From the NCBI RefSeq assembly GCF_030013205.1, contig NZ_CP122648.1: DNA of 64,000 nucleotides. One strand, written 5' to 3'. Each line of letters opens with the position of its first letter. The stretch's first letter is position 1. This document shows positions 10,331 through 38,106 of this stretch, one piece after another. This DNA comes from Escherichia coli. Its GTDB lineage: Bacteria > Pseudomonadota > Gammaproteobacteria > Enterobacterales > Enterobacteriaceae. Under the pieces are notes generated by a model. That model did no database searches. It was not told the origin of the DNA and was given only the letters and a program-made list of their open reading frames with translations. The position numbers and the translations under genes are program-made.

Positions 10331-11119
10331 ATGCAAACGATTATCCGTGTCGAGAAGCTCGCCAAAACCTTCAATCAGCATCAGGCGCTGCACGCGGTTG
10401 ATCTGAACATTCATCACGGTGAAATGGTGGCTCTGCTTGGGCCGTCGGGTTCCGGCAAATCCACCCTTTTACGTCACTTAAGCGGTTTGATTACCGGCGA
10501 TAAATCTGCCGGTAGCCATATCGAGCTGCTGGGTCGCACAGTCCAGCGCGAAGGCCGCCTGGCCCGCGATATCCGCAAAAGCCGCGCCAACACCGGCTAC
10601 ATCTTCCAACAATTCAACCTGGTGAATCGCCTGAGCGTACTGGAGAACGTGCTGATTGGCGCGCTCGGCAGCACGCCATTCTGGCGCACCTGTTTTAGCT
10701 ACTTCACCCGCGAGCAGAAACAACGCGCGTTACAGGCGCTGACCCGCGTTGGCATGGTGCATTTTGCCCATCAGCGCGTTTCCACCCTCTCCGGCGGGCA
10801 ACAGCAGCGTGTGGCGATTGCCCGCGCGCTGATGCAGCAGGCGAAGGTGATTCTGGCGGACGAACCCATCGCCTCGCTGGACCCGGAATCAGCGCGCATC
10901 GTGATGGACACCCTGCGCGACATCAACCAGAACGACGGCATTACCGTGGTCGTCACGCTGCATCAGGTGGATTACGCCCTGCGCTACTGCGAACGCATCG
11001 TCGCCCTGCGCCAGGGGCACGTCTTCTACGACGGCAGCAGCCAACAGTTTGATAACGAACGCTTTGATCATCTCTATCGCAGCATCAACCGCGTCGAAGA
11101 GAACGCGAAAGCTGCCTGA
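10331..11119 (+). CDS. phnC: Phosphonate ABC transporter ATP-binding protein PhnC
   Basis: 262 aa, Walker [10 protein letters not shown], signature LSGGQQQR, Walker B ILADEP. Confidence 0.95.
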
Positions 11120-32247: not shown

Positions 32248-34298
32248 TGAGCGCGCTCAACTCCCTGCCATTACCGGTGGTCAGGCTGCTGGCGTTCTTT
32301 CATGAAGAGTTAAGCGAGCGGCGACCAGGCCGCGTGCCGCAGACTATGCAACTCTGGGTAGGCTGCCTGCTGGTGATTCTGATCTCGATGACTTTTGAGA
32401 TCCCTTTTGTGGCGTTATCGCTGGCAGTGCTGTTTTACGGTATTCAGTCGAACGCGTTTTACACCAAATTTGTCGCGATCTTGTTTGTGGTCGCCACGGT
32501 GCTGGAGATCGGCAGCCTGTTTTTGATCTACAAATGGTCATATGGCGAACCGTTGATCCGATTGATCATCGCCGGACCGATCCTGATGGGCTGCATGTTT
32601 TTGATGCGCACCCATCGGCTGGGGCTGGTCTTTTTCGCCGTCGCCATTGTCGCCATTTACGGGCAAACCTTCCCCGCCATGCTCGACTATCCGGAAGTGG
32701 TCGTGCGCTTAACGCTGTGGTGTATCGTTGTTGGCCTCTATCCGACCTTGCTGATGACGTTAATCGGTGTGCTATGGTTTCCCAGTCGTGCCATTACGCA
32801 AATGCATCAGGCGCTTAATGATCGGCTTGATGATGCCATTAGCCACCTGACAGACAGCCTCGCACCGCTATCCGAAACGCGGATTGAAAGAGAGGCGCTG
32901 GCGCTGCAAAAACTGAATGTATTTTGTCTCGCGGACGATGCCAACTGGCGAACTCAAAGCGCATGGTGGCAAAGCTGCGTGGCAACGGTAACCTACATTT
33001 ACTCGACGCTGAATCGCTACGATCCCACCTCTTTTGCTGATTCTCAGGCAATTATTGAATTCCGGCAAAAATTAGCCTCAGAAATCAACAAACTGCAGCA
33101 TGCCATTGCCGAAGGTCAGTGCTGGCAAAGCGACTGGCGGATCAGTGAAAGTGAAGCGATGGCGGCACGGGAATGTAACCTGGAGAATATCTGCCAGACG
33201 TTATTGCAACTGGGTCAGATGGACCCGAATACGCCGCCAACGCCCGCCACCAAACCGCCATCAATGGTCGCCGACGCTTTTACCAATCCAGACTATATGC
33301 GCTACGCGGTAAAAACGCTGCTCGCCTGTTTGATCTGTTACACCTTCTACAGCGGCGTGGACTGGGAAGGCATTCACACCTGTATGCTGACCTGCGTGAT
33401 CGTCGCTAACCCAAATGTTGGTTCGTCGTATCAGAAAACGGCGCTGCGTTTTGGCGGTGCCTTCTGCGGTGCAATTCTGGCGCTGTTATTCACGTTACTG
33501 GTCATGCCCTGGCTGGACAATATTGTCGAATTGCTATTTGTGCTGGCACCGATTTTCCTGTTGGGCGCATGGATTGCCACCAGCTCTGAACGCTCTTCTT
33601 ATATCGGCACACAGATGGTGGTCACCTTCGCGCTCGCCACGCTCGAAAACGTTTTTGGCCCAGTGTACGACCTGGTGGAAATTCGCGATCGCGCCCTGGG
33701 TATCATCATTGGTACCGTGGTGTCCGCGGTGATTTACACCTTTGTCTGGCCTGAAAGTGAAGCGCGCACGCTGCCGCAAAAACTGGCTGGCGCGCTGGGT
33801 ATGTTAAGTAAAGTAATGCGGATCCCACGCCAGCAGGAAGTCATGGCTCTGCGCACTTATCTGCAAATTCGTATAGGTCTGCATGCGGCGTTTAATGCCT
33901 GTGAAGAGATGTGCCAACGCGTGGCGCTGGAGCGTCAACTGGACAGCGAAGAACGCGCTTTACTGATTGAACGTTCGCAAACGGTTATTCGTCAGGGCCG
34001 CGATATTCTTCACGCCTGGGATGCAACCTGGAACTCGGCGCAGGCGCTGGATAACGCACTACAGCCGGACAGAGCTGGTCAGTTTGCCGACGCACTGGAG
34101 AAATACGCCGCCGGTCTGGCAACCGCACTCAGCCGTTCTCCTCAAATAACGCTTGAAGAAACACCCGCCTCGCAGGCCATCCTGCCGACCTTATTAAAAC
34201 AGGAGCAACACGTCTGCCAGCTTTTCGCCCGCTTGCCAGACTGGACAGCCCCGGCATTAACGCCCGCCACGGAACAGGTACAAGGAGCCACGCAATGA
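32247..34298 (+). CDS. mdtO: Multidrug efflux inner-membrane protein MdtO (fusaric-acid-resistance/AaeB family)
   Basis: 683 aa; start overlaps mdtN stop. Confidence 0.92.
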   Translation: MSALNSLPLPVVRLLAFFHEELSERRPGRVPQTMQLWVGCLLVILISMTFEIPFVALSLAVLFYGIQSNAFYTKFVAILFVVATVLEIGSLFLIYKWSYGEPLIRLIIAGPILMGCMFLMRTHRLGLVFFAVAIVAIYGQTFPAMLDYPEVVVRLTLWCIVVGLYPTLLMTLIGVLWFPSRAITQMHQALNDRLDDAISHLTDSLAPLSETRIEREALALQKLNVFCLADDANWRTQSAWWQSCVATVTYIYSTLNRYDPTSFADSQAIIEFRQKLASEINKLQHAIAEGQCWQSDWRISESEAMAARECNLENICQTLLQLGQMDPNTPPTPATKPPSMVADAFTNPDYMRYAVKTLLACLICYTFYSGVDWEGIHTCMLTCVIVANPNVGSSYQKTALRFGGAFCGAILALLFTLLVMPWLDNIVELLFVLAPIFLLGAWIATSSERSSYIGTQMVVTFALATLENVFGPVYDLVEIRDRALGIIIGTVVSAVIYTFVWPESEARTLPQKLAGALGMLSKVMRIPRQQEVMALRTYLQIRIGLHAAFNACEEMCQRVALERQLDSEERALLIERSQTVIRQGRDILHAWDATWNSAQALDNALQPDRAGQFADALEKYAAGLATALSRSPQITLEETPASQAILPTLLKQEQHVCQLFARLPDWTAPALTPATEQVQGATQ

Positions 34299-35761
34299 TC
34301 AATCGTCAACTTTCACGCCTGCTGTTGTGCAGCATTCTCGGCAGCACGACGCTGATTTCCGGCTGTGCCCTGGTACGTAAGGATTCTGCGCCTCATCAAC
34401 AGCTCAAACCGGAACAAATCAAACTGGCCGATGATATTCATCTTGCCAGCTCCGGTTGGCCGCAGGCGCAGTGGTGGAAACAACTCAATGACCCGCAGTT
34501 GGATGCCCTGATCCAACGGACGCTAAGTGGTTCACACACCCTCGCCGAAGCGAAACTGCGGGAAGAAAAAGCGCAGTCCCAGGCCGATTTGTTAGATGCT
34601 GGTTCACAGTTGCAGGTGGCAGCGTTAGGGATGCTCAACCGCCAACGTGTCTCGGCGAACGGCTTTTTAAGCCCTTATGCGATGGATGCGCCCGCACTGG
34701 GGATGGACGGGCCGTACTATACGGAAGCCACAGTCGGTTTGTTTGCCGGACTGGATCTCGATTTGTGGGGTGTGCATCGCTCAGCGGTTGCCGCTGCCAT
34801 TGGCGCGCATAATGCCGCGCTGGCAGAAACCGCAGCAGTAGAGCTATCGCTGACCACGGGCGTAGCGCAGCTTTATTACAGTATGCAGGCCAGCTATCAG
34901 ATGCTCGATCTGTTAGAACAAACTCGCGATGTGATTGATTACGCGGTAAAAGCGCACCAGAGTAAAGTGGCGCACGGTCTGGAAGCGCAAGTGCCTTTCC
35001 ACGGCGCGCGGGCACAGATTCTGGCGGTCGATAAACAAATTGCTGCCGTTAAAGGGCAAATCTCCGAAACGCGAGAATCTCTGCGCGCATTGATTGGCGC
35101 GGGAGCCAGCGATATGCCGGAGATCAGACCGGTGGCATTACCGCAAGTCCAGACCGGCATTCCGGCGACACTCTCTTATGAGTTGCTCGCCAGACGCCCG
35201 GATCTGCAAGCCATGCGCTGGTATGTTCAGGCGTCATTAGATCAGGTGGATTCCGCGCGGGCGCTGTTCTATCCGAGCTTTGATATCAAAGCGTTTTTCG
35301 GCCTGGACTCTATCCACCTGGATACCTTATTCAAAAAAACCAGTCGCCAGTTCAACTTTATCCCGGGTCTGAAATTGCCGCTGTTTGACGGTGGACGGTT
35401 GAATGCCAATCTCGAAGGCACTCGCGCCGCCAGCAACATGATGATTGAACGTTACAACCAGTCAGTGCTGAATGCGGTGCGCGACGTTGCCGTCAACGGC
35501 ACGCGTCTGCAAACGCTTAACGACGAGCGAGAGATGCAGGCTGAACGCGTGGAAGCAACGCGCTTCACCCAGCGCGCTGCCGAGGCCGCCTATCAACGCG
35601 GCTTAACCAGCCGCTTACAGGCCACCGAAGCCCGGTTGCCAGTGCTTGCCGAGGAGATGTCATTACTGATGCTGGACAGCCGCCGGGTGATCCAAAGCAT
35701 TCAGTTGATGAAATCGCTGGGCGGCGGGTATCAGGCAAGTCCCGTCGTCGAGAAAAAATAA
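34295..35761 (+). CDS. mdtP: Outer-membrane efflux channel MdtP (TolC/OprM family)
   Basis: 488 aa with lipoprotein signal (…TTLISGCAL); ATGA overlap with mdtO. Confidence 0.92.
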   Translation: MINRQLSRLLLCSILGSTTLISGCALVRKDSAPHQQLKPEQIKLADDIHLASSGWPQAQWWKQLNDPQLDALIQRTLSGSHTLAEAKLREEKAQSQADLLDAGSQLQVAALGMLNRQRVSANGFLSPYAMDAPALGMDGPYYTEATVGLFAGLDLDLWGVHRSAVAAAIGAHNAALAETAAVELSLTTGVAQLYYSMQASYQMLDLLEQTRDVIDYAVKAHQSKVAHGLEAQVPFHGARAQILAVDKQIAAVKGQISETRESLRALIGAGASDMPEIRPVALPQVQTGIPATLSYELLARRPDLQAMRWYVQASLDQVDSARALFYPSFDIKAFFGLDSIHLDTLFKKTSRQFNFIPGLKLPLFDGGRLNANLEGTRAASNMMIERYNQSVLNAVRDVAVNGTRLQTLNDEREMQAERVEATRFTQRAAEAAYQRGLTSRLQATEARLPVLAEEMSLLMLDSRRVIQSIQLMKSLGGGYQASPVVEKK

Positions 35762-35769
35762 AATGTCTG

Positions 35770-35800
35770 CCGCGTGATGGCTGTCACGCGGTATTTCGTT
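35770..35800 (+). terminator. Rho-independent terminator after mdtP
   Basis: ccgcgtga-tggctg-tcacgcgg hairpin followed by tatttcgttt. Confidence 0.65.
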
Positions 35801-35845
35801 TCGTCACGTCAAAACTGACGACAGCCTGTTTTTCGTCAGAGTTTT
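35798..35845 (+). promoter_or_regulatory. FhlA upstream activating sequence of fdhF (inverted TCGTCA/TGACGA repeats)
   Basis: tttcgtcacgtcaaaactgacga ... ttttcgtcaga: repeated TCGTCA/TGACGA half-sites ~60-110 bp upstream of the sigma54 promoter element. Confidence 0.55.
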
Positions 35846-35891
35846 GAATAAATAGTGCCCGTAATATCAGGGAATGACCCCAAATAAAATG

Positions 35892-35907
35892 TGGCATAAA
35901 AGATGCA
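35892..35907 (+). promoter_or_regulatory. Sigma-54 (RpoN) promoter of fdhF (-24 GG / -12 GC)
   Basis: TGGCATaaaagATGCA matches TGGCAC-N5-TTGCA consensus, ~50 bp upstream of fdhF ATG. Confidence 0.75.
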
Positions 35908-35958
35908 TACTGTAGTCGAGAGCGCGTATGCGTGATTTGATTAACTGGAGCGAGACCG

Positions 35959-38106
35959 ATGAAAAAAGTCGTCACGGTTTGCCCCTATTGCGCATCAGGT
36001 TGCAAAATCAACCTGGTCGTCGATAACGGCAAAATCGTCCGGGCGGAGGCAGCGCAGGGGAAAACCAACCAGGGTACCCTGTGTCTGAAGGGTTATTATG
36101 GCTGGGACTTCATTAACGATACCCAGATCCTGACCCCGCGCCTGAAAACCCCCATGATCCGTCGCCAGCGTGGCGGCAAACTCGAACCTGTTTCCTGGGA
36201 TGAGGCACTGAATTACGTTGCCGAGCGCCTGAGCGCCATCAAAGAGAAGTACGGTCCGGATGCCATCCAGACGACCGGCTCCTCGCGTGGTACGGGTAAC
36301 GAAACCAACTATGTAATGCAAAAATTTGCGCGCGCCGTTATTGGTACCAATAACGTTGACTGCTGCGCTCGTGTCTGACACGGCCCATCGGTTGCAGGTC
36401 TGCACCAATCGGTCGGTAATGGCGCAATGAGCAATGCTATTAACGAAATTGATAATACCGATTTAGTGTTCGTTTTCGGGTACAACCCGGCGGATTCCCA
36501 CCCAATCGTGGCGAATCACGTAATTAACGCTAAACGTAACGGGGCGAAAATTATCGTCTGCGATCCGCGCAAAATTGAAACCGCGCGCATTGCTGACATG
36601 CACATTGCACTGAAAAACGGCTCGAACATCGCGCTGTTGAATGCGATGGGCCATGTCATTATTGAAGAAAATTTGTACGACAAAGCGTTCGTCGCTTCCC
36701 GTACAGAAGGCTTTGAAGAGTATCGTAAAATCGTTGAAGGCTACACGCCGGAGTCGGTTGAAGATATCACCGGCGTCAGCGCCAGTGAGATTCGTCAGGC
36801 GGCACGGATGTATGCCCAGGCGAAAAGCGCCGCCATCCTGTGGGGCATGGGTGTAACCCAGTTCTACCAGGGCGTGGAAACCGTGCGTTCTCTGACCAGC
36901 CTCGCGATGCTGACCGGTAACCTCGGTAAGCCGCATGCGGGTGTAAACCCGGTTCGTGGTCAGAACAACGTGCAGGGTGCCTGCGATATGGGCGCGCTGC
37001 CGGATACGTATCCGGGATACCAGTACGTGAAAGATCCGGCTAACCGCGAGAAATTCGCCAAAGCCTGGGGCGTGGAAAGCCTGCCTGCTCATACCGGTTA
37101 TCGCATCAGCGAGCTGCCGCACCGCGCAGCGCATGGTGAAGTGCGTGCCGCGTACATTATGGGCGAAGATCCGCTGCAAACTGACGCGGAACTGTCGGCA
37201 GTACGTAAAGCCTTTGAAGATCTGGAACTGGTTATCGTTCAGGACATCTTTATGACCAAAACCGCGTCGGCGGCGGATGTCATTTTACCGTCAACGTCAT
37301 GGGGCGAGCATGAAGGCGTGTTTACTGCGGCTGACCGTGGCTTCCAGCGTTTCTTCAAAGCGGTTGAACCGAAGTGGGATCTGAAAACGGACTGGCAGAT
37401 TATCAGTGAAATCGCCACCCGTATGGGTTATCCGATGCACTACAACAACACCCAGGAGATCTGGGATGAGTTGCGTCATCTGTGCCCGGATTTCTACGGT
37501 GCGACTTACGAAAAAATGGGCGAACTGGGCTTCATTCAGTGGCCTTGCCGCGATACTTCAGATGCCGATCAGGGGACTTCTTATCTGTTTAAAGAGAAGT
37601 TTGATACCCCGAACGGTCTGGCGCAGTTCTTCACCTGCGACTGGGTAGCGCCAATCGACAAACTCACCGACGAGTACCCGATGGTACTGTCAACGGTGCG
37701 TGAAGTTGGTCACTACTCTTGCCGTTCGATGACCGGTAACTGTGCAGCACTGGCGGCGCTGGCTGATGAACCTGGCTACGCACAAATCAATACCGAAGAC
37801 GCCAAACGTCTGGGTATTGAAGATGAGGCATTGGTTTGGGTGCACTCGCGTAAAGGCAAAATTATCACCCGTGCGCAGGTCAGCGATCGTCCGAACAAAG
37901 GGGCGATTTATATGACCTACCAGTGGTGGATTGGTGCCTGTAACGAGCTGGTTACCGAAAACTTAAGCCCGATTACGAAAACGCCGGAATACAAATACTG
38001 CGCCGTGCGCGTCGAGCCGATCGCCGATCAGCGCGCCGCCGAGCAGTACGTGATTGACGAGTACAACAAGTTGAAAACTCGCCTGCGCGAAGCGGCACTG
38101 GCGTAA
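35959..38106 (+). CDS. fdhF: Formate dehydrogenase H (FDH-H), selenocysteine-containing molybdoenzyme; in-frame TGA at 36376-36378 decoded as Sec140
   Basis: Track ORFs 35959-36378 and 36427-38106 are in the same frame, separated only by one TGA; combined 715-aa protein has N-terminal 4Fe-4S Cys motif (CPYCASGC) and ...VDCCARV-U-HGPSVAGLHQSVGNGAMSN...; SECIS hairpin immediately 3' of the TGA. Confidence 0.93.
36379..36425 (+). other. SECIS (selenocysteine insertion sequence) stem-loop within fdhF mRNA
   Basis: cacggcccatcggttgcaggtctgcaccaatcggtcggtaatggcg directly after the UGA; contains the GGUUGCAGGUCUGCACC apical stem-loop recognised by SelB. Confidence 0.85.

What the first reader, a model, noticed from the sequence alone, without database searches (positions are those of the whole stretch)
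35798..35907. fdhF control region: sigma-54 promoter with upstream FhlA-type inverted repeats
TGGCAT-N5-ATGCA (35892-35907) fits the -24/-12 RpoN promoter, and repeated TCGTCA/TGACGA half-sites lie 50-110 bp further upstream, the expected arrangement for formate- and FhlA-dependent activation. This is useful for annotation because no sigma-70 promoter is evident.
Basis: partly seen in the sequence, partly recalled or inferred. Interest (0 to 1): 0.3.

Follow-up and report, generated by a model that had tools for sequence, protein, structure and literature searches.

The report
Known fdhF sigma-54 promoter and enhancer

Summary
The window is E. coli chromosome (mdtNOP, then fdhF). Positions 35740-35975 match K-12 MG1655 at all but one base, and 5419 of 5426 complete E. 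coli genomes carry the region.

**Promoter.** TGGCAT-N5-ATGCA sits exactly at 35892-35907, with GG-N10-GC spacing, 67 bp before the fdhF ATG at 35959. A published sigma-54 ChIP-seq study lists this same 17-mer for fdhF and flags the promoter as experimentally confirmed in EcoCyc. The predicted start is 35918. A simple scan finds no sigma-70-like promoter.

**Upstream repeats.** The hexamers are real: TCGTCA 35801-06, TGACGA 35816-21 and TCGTCA 35833-38. This is the only place in the 64 kb with three of them together. They lie in a 41-bp block (35799-35839) that, with the -24/-12 element, stands out as conserved in 78 Enterobacteriaceae fdhF upstream regions. The same hexamer class clusters in the K-12 hyc/hyp and hydN control regions.

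**Refinements.**
- FhlA binding itself rests on the literature and was not tested here.

Verdict: observation confirmed, interpretation supported, already known, low interest.

The parts
35768..35793 (+). mdtP intrinsic terminator hairpin (TGCCGCGTGA-TGGC-TGTCACGCGGTA, followed by TTTCGTTTCG). It is context for the finding, and its 3' arm carries the conserved GTCAC.
   Evidence: Terminator scan found a stem of 11 pairs followed by a T-rich tail. Inverted repeat I2 spans 35770-77 / 35784-91. The mdtP ORF ends at 35761.
35783..35787 (+). Distal conserved GTCAC, about -135 to -131 from the predicted start.
   Evidence: A GTCA lies 15-19 bp upstream of the enhancer core in 67 of 77 Enterobacteriaceae fdhF upstream regions, at exactly 18 bp in 37. 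Majority identity is 0.75 here against 0.46-0.49 in the flanks. It is present even where there is no mdtP hairpin.
35799..35839 (+). Enhancer (UAS) core TTTCGTCACGTCAAAACTGACGACAGCCTGTTTTTCGTCAG, about -119 to -79. This is the inferred FhlA binding region.
   Evidence: Phylogenetic footprint: mean majority identity is 0.85 over 78 distinct upstream regions from many genera. The distance from the core to the second TCGTCA is 32 bp in 72 of 77. The core lies 91 or 92 bp from TGGCA in 69 of 77, and 82 or 83 bp in the other 8.
35801..35806 (+). It reads TCGACA in most other genera.
   Evidence: At the aligned position 51 sequences have TCGACA and 22 have TCGTCA, of 78.
35807..35821 (+). Central dyad CGTCA-AAAC-TGACG(A).
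   Evidence: CGTCA is kept in 74 of 78 sequences and TGACGA in 67 of 78, with TGTCGA in 10. The 4-nt spacer varies but stays A/T-rich. It is the best match in the spacer to the published 14-bp FhlA matrix, at 8.4 bits. The same GTCA-N3/4-YGACR layout is seen in both hyc UAS clusters.
35833..35839 (+). It forms a 7-nt inverted repeat with CTGACGA at 35815-21.
   Evidence: I5. TCGTCA is kept in 70 of 78 sequences.
35862..35880 (+). Moderately conserved linker TAATATCAGGGAATGACCC between enhancer and promoter. It holds a weak IHF-like match at 35865-77 and is a possible DNA-bending site (speculative).
   Evidence: Conservation marks. WATCARNNNNTTR matches with 1 mismatch at 35865-77, but there are 120 such matches in the window, so the pattern is not specific.
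35892..35907 (+). Sigma-54 (RpoN) promoter TGGCAT-AAAAG-ATGCA, with GG at -25/-24 and GC at -13/-12.
   Evidence: The 17-mer is identical to sigma-54 ChIP-seq peak OS41 for fdhF (PMC4591121). TGGCA and TGCA are invariant or nearly so in 78 orthologous regions, with mean identity 0.92.
35918..35958 (+). Predicted transcription start (35918) and 41-nt 5' leader, with Shine-Dalgarno GGAG at 35947-50.
   Evidence: Bonocora et al. place the predicted start 19 bp downstream of the motif centre (35899) and 41 bp from the gene start. The start was not mapped here. The SD-to-ATG stretch is conserved at 0.90.
35959..38106 (+). fdhF coding sequence (formate dehydrogenase H), with the selenocysteine UGA at 36376-78 and the SECIS at 36371-36425.
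   Evidence: The ORFs 35959-36378 and 36427-38106 are in one frame, joined across the TGA. RefSeq annotates fdhF here. Rfam SECIS_2 matches at 87.1 bits.

Best explanation
This is the native control region of E. coli fdhF, a member of the formate regulon. RNA polymerase carrying sigma-54 binds the -24/-12 element TGGCAT-N5-ATGCA (35892-35907) as a closed complex that cannot open on its own. The enhancer-binding protein FhlA binds the conserved repeat block about 80-120 bp upstream of the start (35799-39, possibly also GTCAC at 35783-87). FhlA is a GAF-AAA+-HTH protein activated by intracellular formate. The intervening DNA loops, perhaps helped by a bend in the conserved linker. FhlA then contacts sigma-54 and uses ATP hydrolysis to open the promoter, with transcription starting near 35918. 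fdhF is therefore made only when formate accumulates, that is, during fermentation without oxygen or nitrate.

**Shown here:** the sequence elements, their identity to K-12, their conservation and fixed spacing, the absence of a sigma-70-like promoter, and motif sharing with other FhlA-dependent regions.

**From the literature:** sigma-54 occupancy, FhlA and formate dependence, and FhlA binding upstream of fdhF.

**Inferred:** which bases FhlA contacts, the same-face arrangement, and any IHF or bending role.
For: - **Identity.** Positions 35740-35975 differ from K-12 MG1655 by one SNP. The region is present in 5419 of 5426 complete E. coli genomes between mdtP and fdhF.
- **Sigma-54 occupancy.** The ChIP-seq motif GTGGCATAAAAGATGCA is assigned to fdhF and flagged as an EcoCyc-confirmed promoter (PMC4591121). 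The spacer is an RpoN holoenzyme gSELEX target (PMC8743547). Salmonella fdhF is sigma-54-bound, has a listed expression ratio of 29, and is assigned to FhlA (PMC3844500).
- **FhlA and formate.** fdhF belongs to the formate-FhlA regulon, and FhlA is stated to bind upstream of fdhF and hyc, on one side of the DNA (PMC11841067; PMC11291172).
- **No sigma-70-like promoter** was found.
- **Phylogenetic footprint.** In 78 Enterobacteriaceae upstream regions the enhancer core scores 0.85 and the -24/-12 element 0.92, against 0.46-0.49 for non-functional flanks. Spacings are fixed.
- **Hexamer clustering.** Three hexamers cluster only here in the 64 kb; 0 of 300 simulations reproduce this.
- **Motif sharing.** An unbiased scan of 2.5-3 kb around K-12 hyc-hyp and hydN puts the densest TCGWCA/TGWCGA clusters in non-coding DNA: the hycA-hycB spacer, the hycA-hypA spacer and the region upstream of hydN. 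GTCA-N4-TGACGA recurs in the hycA-hycB cluster.
Against: - Nothing here contradicts the explanation.
- The published 16-mer FhlA consensus CATTTCGTACGAAATG (quoted in PMC4987338) does not match as an ungapped 16-mer. The best match in the spacer is 9 of 16, no better than hundreds of other positions. Only its half-site TTTCGT is present, three times.
- The 14-bp FhlA matrix from PMC7658346 discriminates poorly. The best site in the spacer ranks 85th in the window.
- The sigma-54 pattern alone is not statistically unusual in 64 kb.
- The primary footprint and start-site papers could not be read.
- The 78 orthologous sequences are related to each other, so the conservation counts are not independent events.
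Confidence: 0.95

Rival explanations
1. The repeats are bound mainly by a regulator other than FhlA. Candidates are the FhlA paralogue HyfR, or nitrate or molybdate regulators such as NarL/NarP or ModE, with FhlA acting elsewhere.
For: The published FhlA consensus and matrix fit the site only weakly. NarL is described as repressing fdhF (PMC2636881).
Against: The same hexamer class and the GTCA-N4-YGAC layout recur in the hyc and hydN FhlA-dependent regions. The literature assigns fdhF to FhlA and states that FhlA binds its upstream region. Control by oxygen and nitrate is explained through formate availability (PMC11841067).
Confidence: 0.03
2. The sigma-54 site is a transcriptionally silent binding site, and fdhF is really transcribed from an unrecognised sigma-70-family promoter or by read-through from mdtP.
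For: Many sigma-54 sites in E. coli are inactive or lie inside genes (PMC4591121). The pattern alone is expected about 0.6 times per 64 kb.
Against: No sigma-70-like site was found. A terminator hairpin closes mdtP. The promoter is flagged as experimentally confirmed. The Salmonella orthologue has a listed sigma-54-dependent expression ratio of 29. The -24/-12 bases are nearly invariant across genera.
Confidence: 0.01
3. The hexamer repeats are chance, or are by-products of the neighbouring mdtP terminator, with no regulatory role.
For: Short hexamers are common, with 49 in the window. One GTCAC copy lies in the terminator stem.
Against: The cluster was reproduced in 0 of 300 simulations. The block is conserved, with fixed internal spacing, in genera whose upstream neighbour and hairpin differ.
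Confidence: 0.01

Closest known systems
E. coli K-12 fdhF promoter (fdhFp) with its FhlA upstream activating sequence
   Same: It is the same locus. The sequence is identical except for one SNP at 35883, which lies between enhancer and promoter. The sigma-54 17-mer is the one found by ChIP-seq.
   Different: Only the strain background differs (A instead of C at 35883). Nothing functional is expected to change.
hyc / hyp divergent sigma-54 promoters and their two FhlA enhancers (E. coli K-12)
   Same: These are sigma-54 -24/-12 promoters. Clusters of three TCGWCA/TGWCGA hexamers lie in the hycA-hypA and hycA-hycB spacers, and they contain GTCA-N3/4-YGACR units like fdhF 35808-35820.
   Different: The half-site variants, order and spacing differ (mostly TCGACA/TGTCGA). 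The promoters are divergent and share the enhancers. From my own recollection, not checked here, IHF involvement is reported for hyc/hyp.
Salmonella enterica fdhF sigma-54 promoter (STM4285)
   Same: It is orthologous. The site TGGCATAAAACATGCA is bound by sigma-54, the listed expression ratio is 29, and it is assigned to FhlA. The same enhancer block is seen in S. enterica arizonae locus L016.
   Different: One base differs in the -24/-12 spacer, and the first hexamer reads TCGACA.
Generic bEBP-dependent sigma-54 promoters (for example glnAp2/NtrC, norV/NorR)
   Same: The enhancer lies 70-150 bp upstream, the closed complex needs an AAA+ activator, and DNA looping is involved (PMC3844500).
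   Different: The enhancer sequence and the signal (formate) are specific to FhlA.

Membership tests
Sigma-54 (RpoN)-dependent promoter | GG at -24 and GC at -12 separated by exactly 10 nt, within a TGGCAC-N5-TTGCW-like context | tested here: met
   TGGCAT-AAAAG-ATGCA lies at 35892-35907. It scores 13.6 bits with the 186-promoter matrix, rank 4 of about 128,000 positions.
Sigma-54 (RpoN)-dependent promoter | Correct placement and orientation upstream of a gene, with no sigma-70 promoter serving it | tested here: met
   The element is on the + strand, 67 bp before the fdhF ATG, in a 197-bp spacer. The sigma-70 scan found 0 sites in 35500-36100.
Sigma-54 (RpoN)-dependent promoter | Occupancy by sigma-54 holoenzyme and rpoN-dependent transcription | not testable with these tools
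   Literature on the identical sequence: ChIP-seq peak OS41 (PMC4591121) and gSELEX (PMC8743547). For the Salmonella orthologue: ChIP-chip binding and a listed expression ratio of 29 (PMC3844500).
Sigma-54 (RpoN)-dependent promoter | Transcription start about 12 nt downstream of the GC element | not testable with these tools
   The predicted start is 35918 (motif centre + 19). The promoter is flagged as experimentally confirmed in EcoCyc. The primary mapping papers are not held.
Sigma-54 (RpoN)-dependent promoter | Evolutionary conservation of the -24/-12 bases | tested here: met
   77 of 80 Enterobacteriaceae fdhF loci carry a TGG[CT]A[ACT]-N6-TGCA match within 110 bp of the ATG. Mean column identity is 0.92.
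FhlA-dependent enhancer (formate regulon UAS) | Being the upstream region of a formate-regulon gene on which FhlA dependence was established | tested here: met
   The region is identical to the K-12 fdhF upstream region but for one SNP. fdhF is listed as FhlA- and formate-controlled.
FhlA-dependent enhancer (formate regulon UAS) | Repeat motif shared with other FhlA-dependent control regions of the same genome | tested here: met
   TCGWCA/TGWCGA occurs 3 times here against a background of 0.085 per 71 bp. There are clusters of 3 in each of two hyc spacers and of 2 upstream of hydN, but only 1 at hyfA. GTCA-N3/4-YGACR is shared with hyc but not with hydN or hyf.
FhlA-dependent enhancer (formate regulon UAS) | Match to the published 16-bp consensus CATTTCGTACGAAATG (Leonhartsberger 2000, as quoted in PMC4987338) | tested here: not met
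   The best ungapped match in the spacer is 9 of 16, and 388 window positions do as well or better. Only the half-site TTTCGT is present, at 35794, 35799 and 35831. This consensus is a summary quoted in a review table, not a criterion that overrides identity with the experimentally studied locus.
FhlA-dependent enhancer (formate regulon UAS) | Match to the published 14-bp FhlA weight matrix (PMC7658346, Table 2) | tested here: inconclusive
   The best match in the spacer is CGTCAAAACTGACG at 35807-20, scoring 8.4 of a possible 16.8 bits. It ranks 85th in the window, so the matrix discriminates poorly.
FhlA-dependent enhancer (formate regulon UAS) | Position 70-150 bp upstream of the sigma-54 promoter, with conserved phasing | tested here: met
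   The core lies at -119 to -79. The core-to-TGGCA distance is 91 or 92 bp in 69 of 77 regions and 82 or 83 bp in 8, a 9-bp step.
FhlA-dependent enhancer (formate regulon UAS) | Direct FhlA binding and formate-dependent activation through these bases | not testable with these tools
   Stated in the literature (PMC11291172). The primary footprint papers are not held.

The most novel reading that the evidence does not exclude
The fdhF enhancer may be larger than the hexamer block. A conserved GTCAC (35783-87) is embedded in the 3' arm of the mdtP terminator hairpin in Escherichia. It sits 20 and 52 bp from the GTCA cores at 35803 and 35835, roughly whole helical turns and so on the same face of the DNA. 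It could be an additional FhlA contact. The conserved linker at 35862-80 could be a site for an architectural protein such as IHF. If so, the terminator of one gene and the enhancer of the next physically overlap.
Probability: 0.25. Interest if true: 0.2.

Novelty: already known. Interest (0 to 1): 0.07.

Why it matters
This matters only for annotation. The region lets fdhF be labelled as a sigma-54/FhlA-dependent, formate-inducible gene, with a predicted start near 35918 and an enhancer at about 35783-35839. It is a textbook example of enhancer-dependent bacterial transcription and of the formate regulon, and no open question is touched. The cross-genus footprint gives a tidy map of which bases are constrained. 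That map could guide mutagenesis, or the design of formate-responsive promoters for hydrogen-production engineering.

Tried and rejected
- **Primary papers.** I tried to read the papers on the fdhF UAS, the FhlA footprints and the start site: Skibinski 2002 (PMC135417), Leonhartsberger 2000 (by DOI), Wang & Gunsalus 2003 (PMC180993), Barrios 1999 (PMC148710) and Hopper & Böck 1995 (PMC176951). None is held. The published footprint coordinates therefore could not be compared base by base. My recollection that the UAS lies about 110 bp upstream of the start (Birkmann & Böck 1989) is memory only.
- **Literature search.** A full-text search for 'fdhF' + 'FhlA' + 'upstream activating sequence' found nothing.
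- **16-mer consensus.** Scanning with CATTTCGTACGAAATG gave no meaningful ungapped match. I rejected it as a site locator.
- **14-bp FhlA matrix.** It has low specificity; the best site in the spacer ranks 85th. I used it only as weak support for the central dyad.
- **IHF consensus.** There is one 1-mismatch hit in the linker, but 120 such hits in the window. I did not accept this as evidence.
- **Inverted repeat I1.** The arms at 35898-35910 and 35926-35938 span the -12 element and the leader. They are 77% complementary and not conserved, so I judged the repeat not meaningful.
- **Rfam scan.** The scan of 35600-36600 found only the SECIS. No RNA family matched the leader.

Full report
**1. 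What the locus is.**

The ORF map shows three co-directional genes of 343, 683 and 488 aa ending at 35761. A 197-bp spacer follows. An ORF then starts at ATG 35959, stops at a TGA at 36376-78, and continues in the same frame to 38106.

Megablast of 35600-36100 hits 5419 of 5426 complete E. coli genomes. In each case the hit spans the end of mdtP and the start of fdhF. The TGA is covered by an Rfam SECIS_2 match (87.1 bits, 36371-36425), so this is the selenocysteine codon of formate dehydrogenase H.

Alignment of 35740-35975 with the K-12 MG1655 fdhF upstream region shows one difference, A versus C at 35883. The finding therefore concerns the native, much-studied fdhF control region.

**2. Check of the observation.**

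TGGCATAAAAGATGCA is at 35892-35907 on the + strand, with GG at 35893-94, GC at 35905-06 and 10 nt between them.

The degenerate pattern is expected about 0.57 times per 64 kb by chance, so the match alone is not significant. Its location and orientation, 67 bp before the fdhF ATG within a 197-bp spacer, are what count. With the 186-promoter RpoN matrix (Table 2 of PMC7658346) it scores 13.6 bits, rank 4 of about 128,000 positions.

The hexamers are TCGTCA 35801-06, TGACGA 35816-21 and TCGTCA(G) 35833-39. They lie 91, 76 and 59 bp upstream of TGGCAT.

- There are 49 such hexamers in the window, and only here do three fall within 45 bp.
- None of 300 second-order Markov simulations produced such a cluster.
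- No sigma-70-like promoter was found on either strand of 35500-36100.

The one terminator-like hairpin (35768-35793) closes mdtP.

**3. Evidence on function from elsewhere.**

*Sigma-54.*
- Bonocora et al. 2015 list ChIP-seq peak OS41 with motif GTGGCATAAAAGATGCA for fdhF. The predicted start is 19 bp downstream of the motif centre and 41 bp from the gene start, and the promoter is flagged 'experimentally confirmed in EcoCyc' (PMC4591121). In window coordinates the motif is 35891-35907 with centre 35899, so the predicted start is 35918. That places GC at -13/-12 and GG at -25/-24.
- Shimada et al. 2021 list the fdhF-mdtP spacer as an RpoN-holoenzyme gSELEX target (PMC8743547).
- In Salmonella the orthologous site TGGCATAAAACATGCA is bound by sigma-54, fdhF has a listed expression ratio of 29, and it is assigned to FhlA (PMC3844500).

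*FhlA.*
- Reviews and recent work place fdhF in the formate-FhlA regulon.
- They state that FhlA binds upstream of fdhF and hyc, on one side of the DNA, and is activated by millimolar formate (PMC11841067; PMC11291172; PMC4987338).

**4. Phylogenetic footprint.**

A scan of species-representative genomes with the first 139 residues of FdhF returned 80 Enterobacteriaceae loci.

77 of them carry a TGG[CT]A[ACT]-N6-TGCA match within 110 bp of the ATG. Nearly all carry the block TTCG(A/T)CACGTCA-N4-TGACGA...TTTCGTCAG at a fixed distance upstream.

In a MAFFT alignment of 78 distinct upstream regions, mean majority identity by segment is:

| Segment | Mean majority identity |
|---|---|
| Far upstream flank | 0.46 |
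| GTCAC (35783-87) | 0.75 |
| Next 11 nt | 0.49 |
| Enhancer core (35799-35839) | 0.85 |
| Linker | 0.70 |
| -24/-12 element | 0.92 |
| Leader | 0.65 |
| SD-ATG | 0.90 |

Hexamer 1 is TCGACA in 51 sequences and TCGTCA in 22. CGTCA is kept in 74, TGACGA in 67 (TGTCGA in 10), and hexamer 3 in 70 of 78.

- The core-to-hexamer-3 distance is 32 bp in 72 of 77.
- The core-to-TGGCA distance is 91 or 92 bp in 69 and 82 or 83 bp in 8. That is a 9-bp step, close to one helical turn.
- A GTCA lies 15-19 bp upstream of the core in 67 of 77 regions, including genera without the mdtP hairpin.

These sequences are related, so the counts are not independent. The contrast with unconserved flanks is still the classic signature of protein-binding sites.

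**5. Is the repeat 'FhlA-type'?**

I fetched the other K-12 FhlA-dependent regions: hyc-hyp, hydN and hyfA. An unbiased sliding count of TCGWCA/TGWCGA gave the following:

- Across 2.5 kb around hycA, the two densest clusters (three sites each) lie in the hycA-hypA spacer and the hycA-hycB spacer.
- Upstream of hydN there is a cluster of two.
- hyfA has a single site.
- 5 kb of fdhF/yjcO/gltP coding DNA has no cluster.

The hycA-hycB cluster contains TGTCATTTTTGACGA, the same layout as fdhF CGTCAAAACTGACGA. GTCA-N3/4-CGACA units occur in both hyc clusters.

It also suggests that the functional dyad in fdhF is the inner CGTCA-N4-TGACG (35807-35820), not the outer TCGTCA-N9-TGACGA pair.

The published descriptions fit less well.
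- The 16-mer consensus quoted in PMC4987338 does not match ungapped (best 9 of 16). Only its half-site TTTCGT recurs, at 35794, 35799 and 35831.
- The 14-bp matrix of PMC7658346 picks 35807-20 as the best site in the spacer, but at a score that ranks only 85th in the window.

I could not read the primary footprint papers.

**6. Mechanism.**

*Shown here.* A sigma-54 -24/-12 element and a conserved repeat block lie at -119 to -79, with fixed spacing. There is no sigma-70-like promoter.

*From the literature.* Sigma-54 holoenzyme occupies the site. FhlA, activated by formate, binds upstream and is required.

*Inferred.*
- FhlA oligomers contact the GTCA/TGAC cores. The GTCA cores at 35783, 35803 and 35835 are 20 and 32 bp apart, close to whole helical turns. 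This is consistent with the reported one-sided binding.
- The 50-bp linker loops or bends, and an IHF-like site at 35865-77 is only a weak hint.
- ATP hydrolysis by FhlA then opens the promoter, with a start near 35918.
- Control by oxygen and nitrate acts through formate availability (PMC11841067).

**7. Comparison with the known, and verdict.**

This is not merely similar to the fdhF sigma-54/FhlA control region; it is that region.

There are three small refinements: the partner of the dyad, the extension of the enhancer to GTCAC at 35783-87 inside the mdtP terminator stem, and the poor fit to the quoted 16-mer consensus.

Novelty: already known. Interest: low.

Noticed in passing
window 36371-36425 (+): A bacterial SECIS element (Rfam SECIS_2, 87.1 bits) starts just before the in-frame fdhF UGA at 36376-78. 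This is the expected selenocysteine insertion signal.
   Followed up: partly
window 35768-35793: The mdtP intrinsic terminator hairpin overlaps a GTCAC (35783-87). That GTCAC is conserved upstream of the fdhF enhancer core even in genera lacking the hairpin, so terminator and enhancer may overlap.
   Followed up: partly
window 35862-35880: A moderately conserved linker (TAATATCAGGGAAT) lies between enhancer and promoter. It carries a 1-mismatch IHF-like match at 35865-77, but the pattern is not specific (120 such hits in the window).
   Followed up: partly
window 10574-10589 (-), 34204-34219 (-), 44371-44386 (+): Three positions score higher than the fdhF promoter with the RpoN matrix (15.5, 15.2 and 13.8 bits). 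The one at 34204 is antisense inside mdtO; the gene context of the other two was not checked. Some could be intragenic sigma-54 sites of the kind reported by ChIP-seq, or chance.
   Followed up: no
window 35883: This is the single difference from K-12 MG1655 in the whole control region (A here, C in K-12). It lies in the linker just upstream of the -24 element.
   Followed up: no
L078, L082, L085 (upstream of position 1501): Three fdhF homologues (Entomohabitans, Leclercia, Enterobacter sp. BIGb0383) have neither the sigma-54 element nor the enhancer upstream. They are presumably paralogues or are regulated differently.
   Followed up: no
L033: A record titled Chryseobacterium sp. 18061 carries an Enterobacteriaceae-type fdhF (96% identical N-terminus) with the full enterobacterial control region. 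The assembly is probably mislabelled or contaminated.
   Followed up: no
L079, L080, L083, L084 (Atlantibacter, Arsenophonus): These loci have a variant enhancer, ATGACA-TGACA-CTTT-TGTCGA. It keeps the architecture of the E. coli block while swapping the W position of the half-sites, and the downstream TCGTCA is missing.
   Followed up: no
L003 870-925 (K-12 hycA-hycB spacer): A second cluster of FhlA-type hexamers (TGTCATTTTTGACGA ... TGTCATTTTCGACACTCATCGACA) lies between hycA and hycB. This is consistent with my recollection that hyc-hyp has two enhancers.
   Followed up: partly
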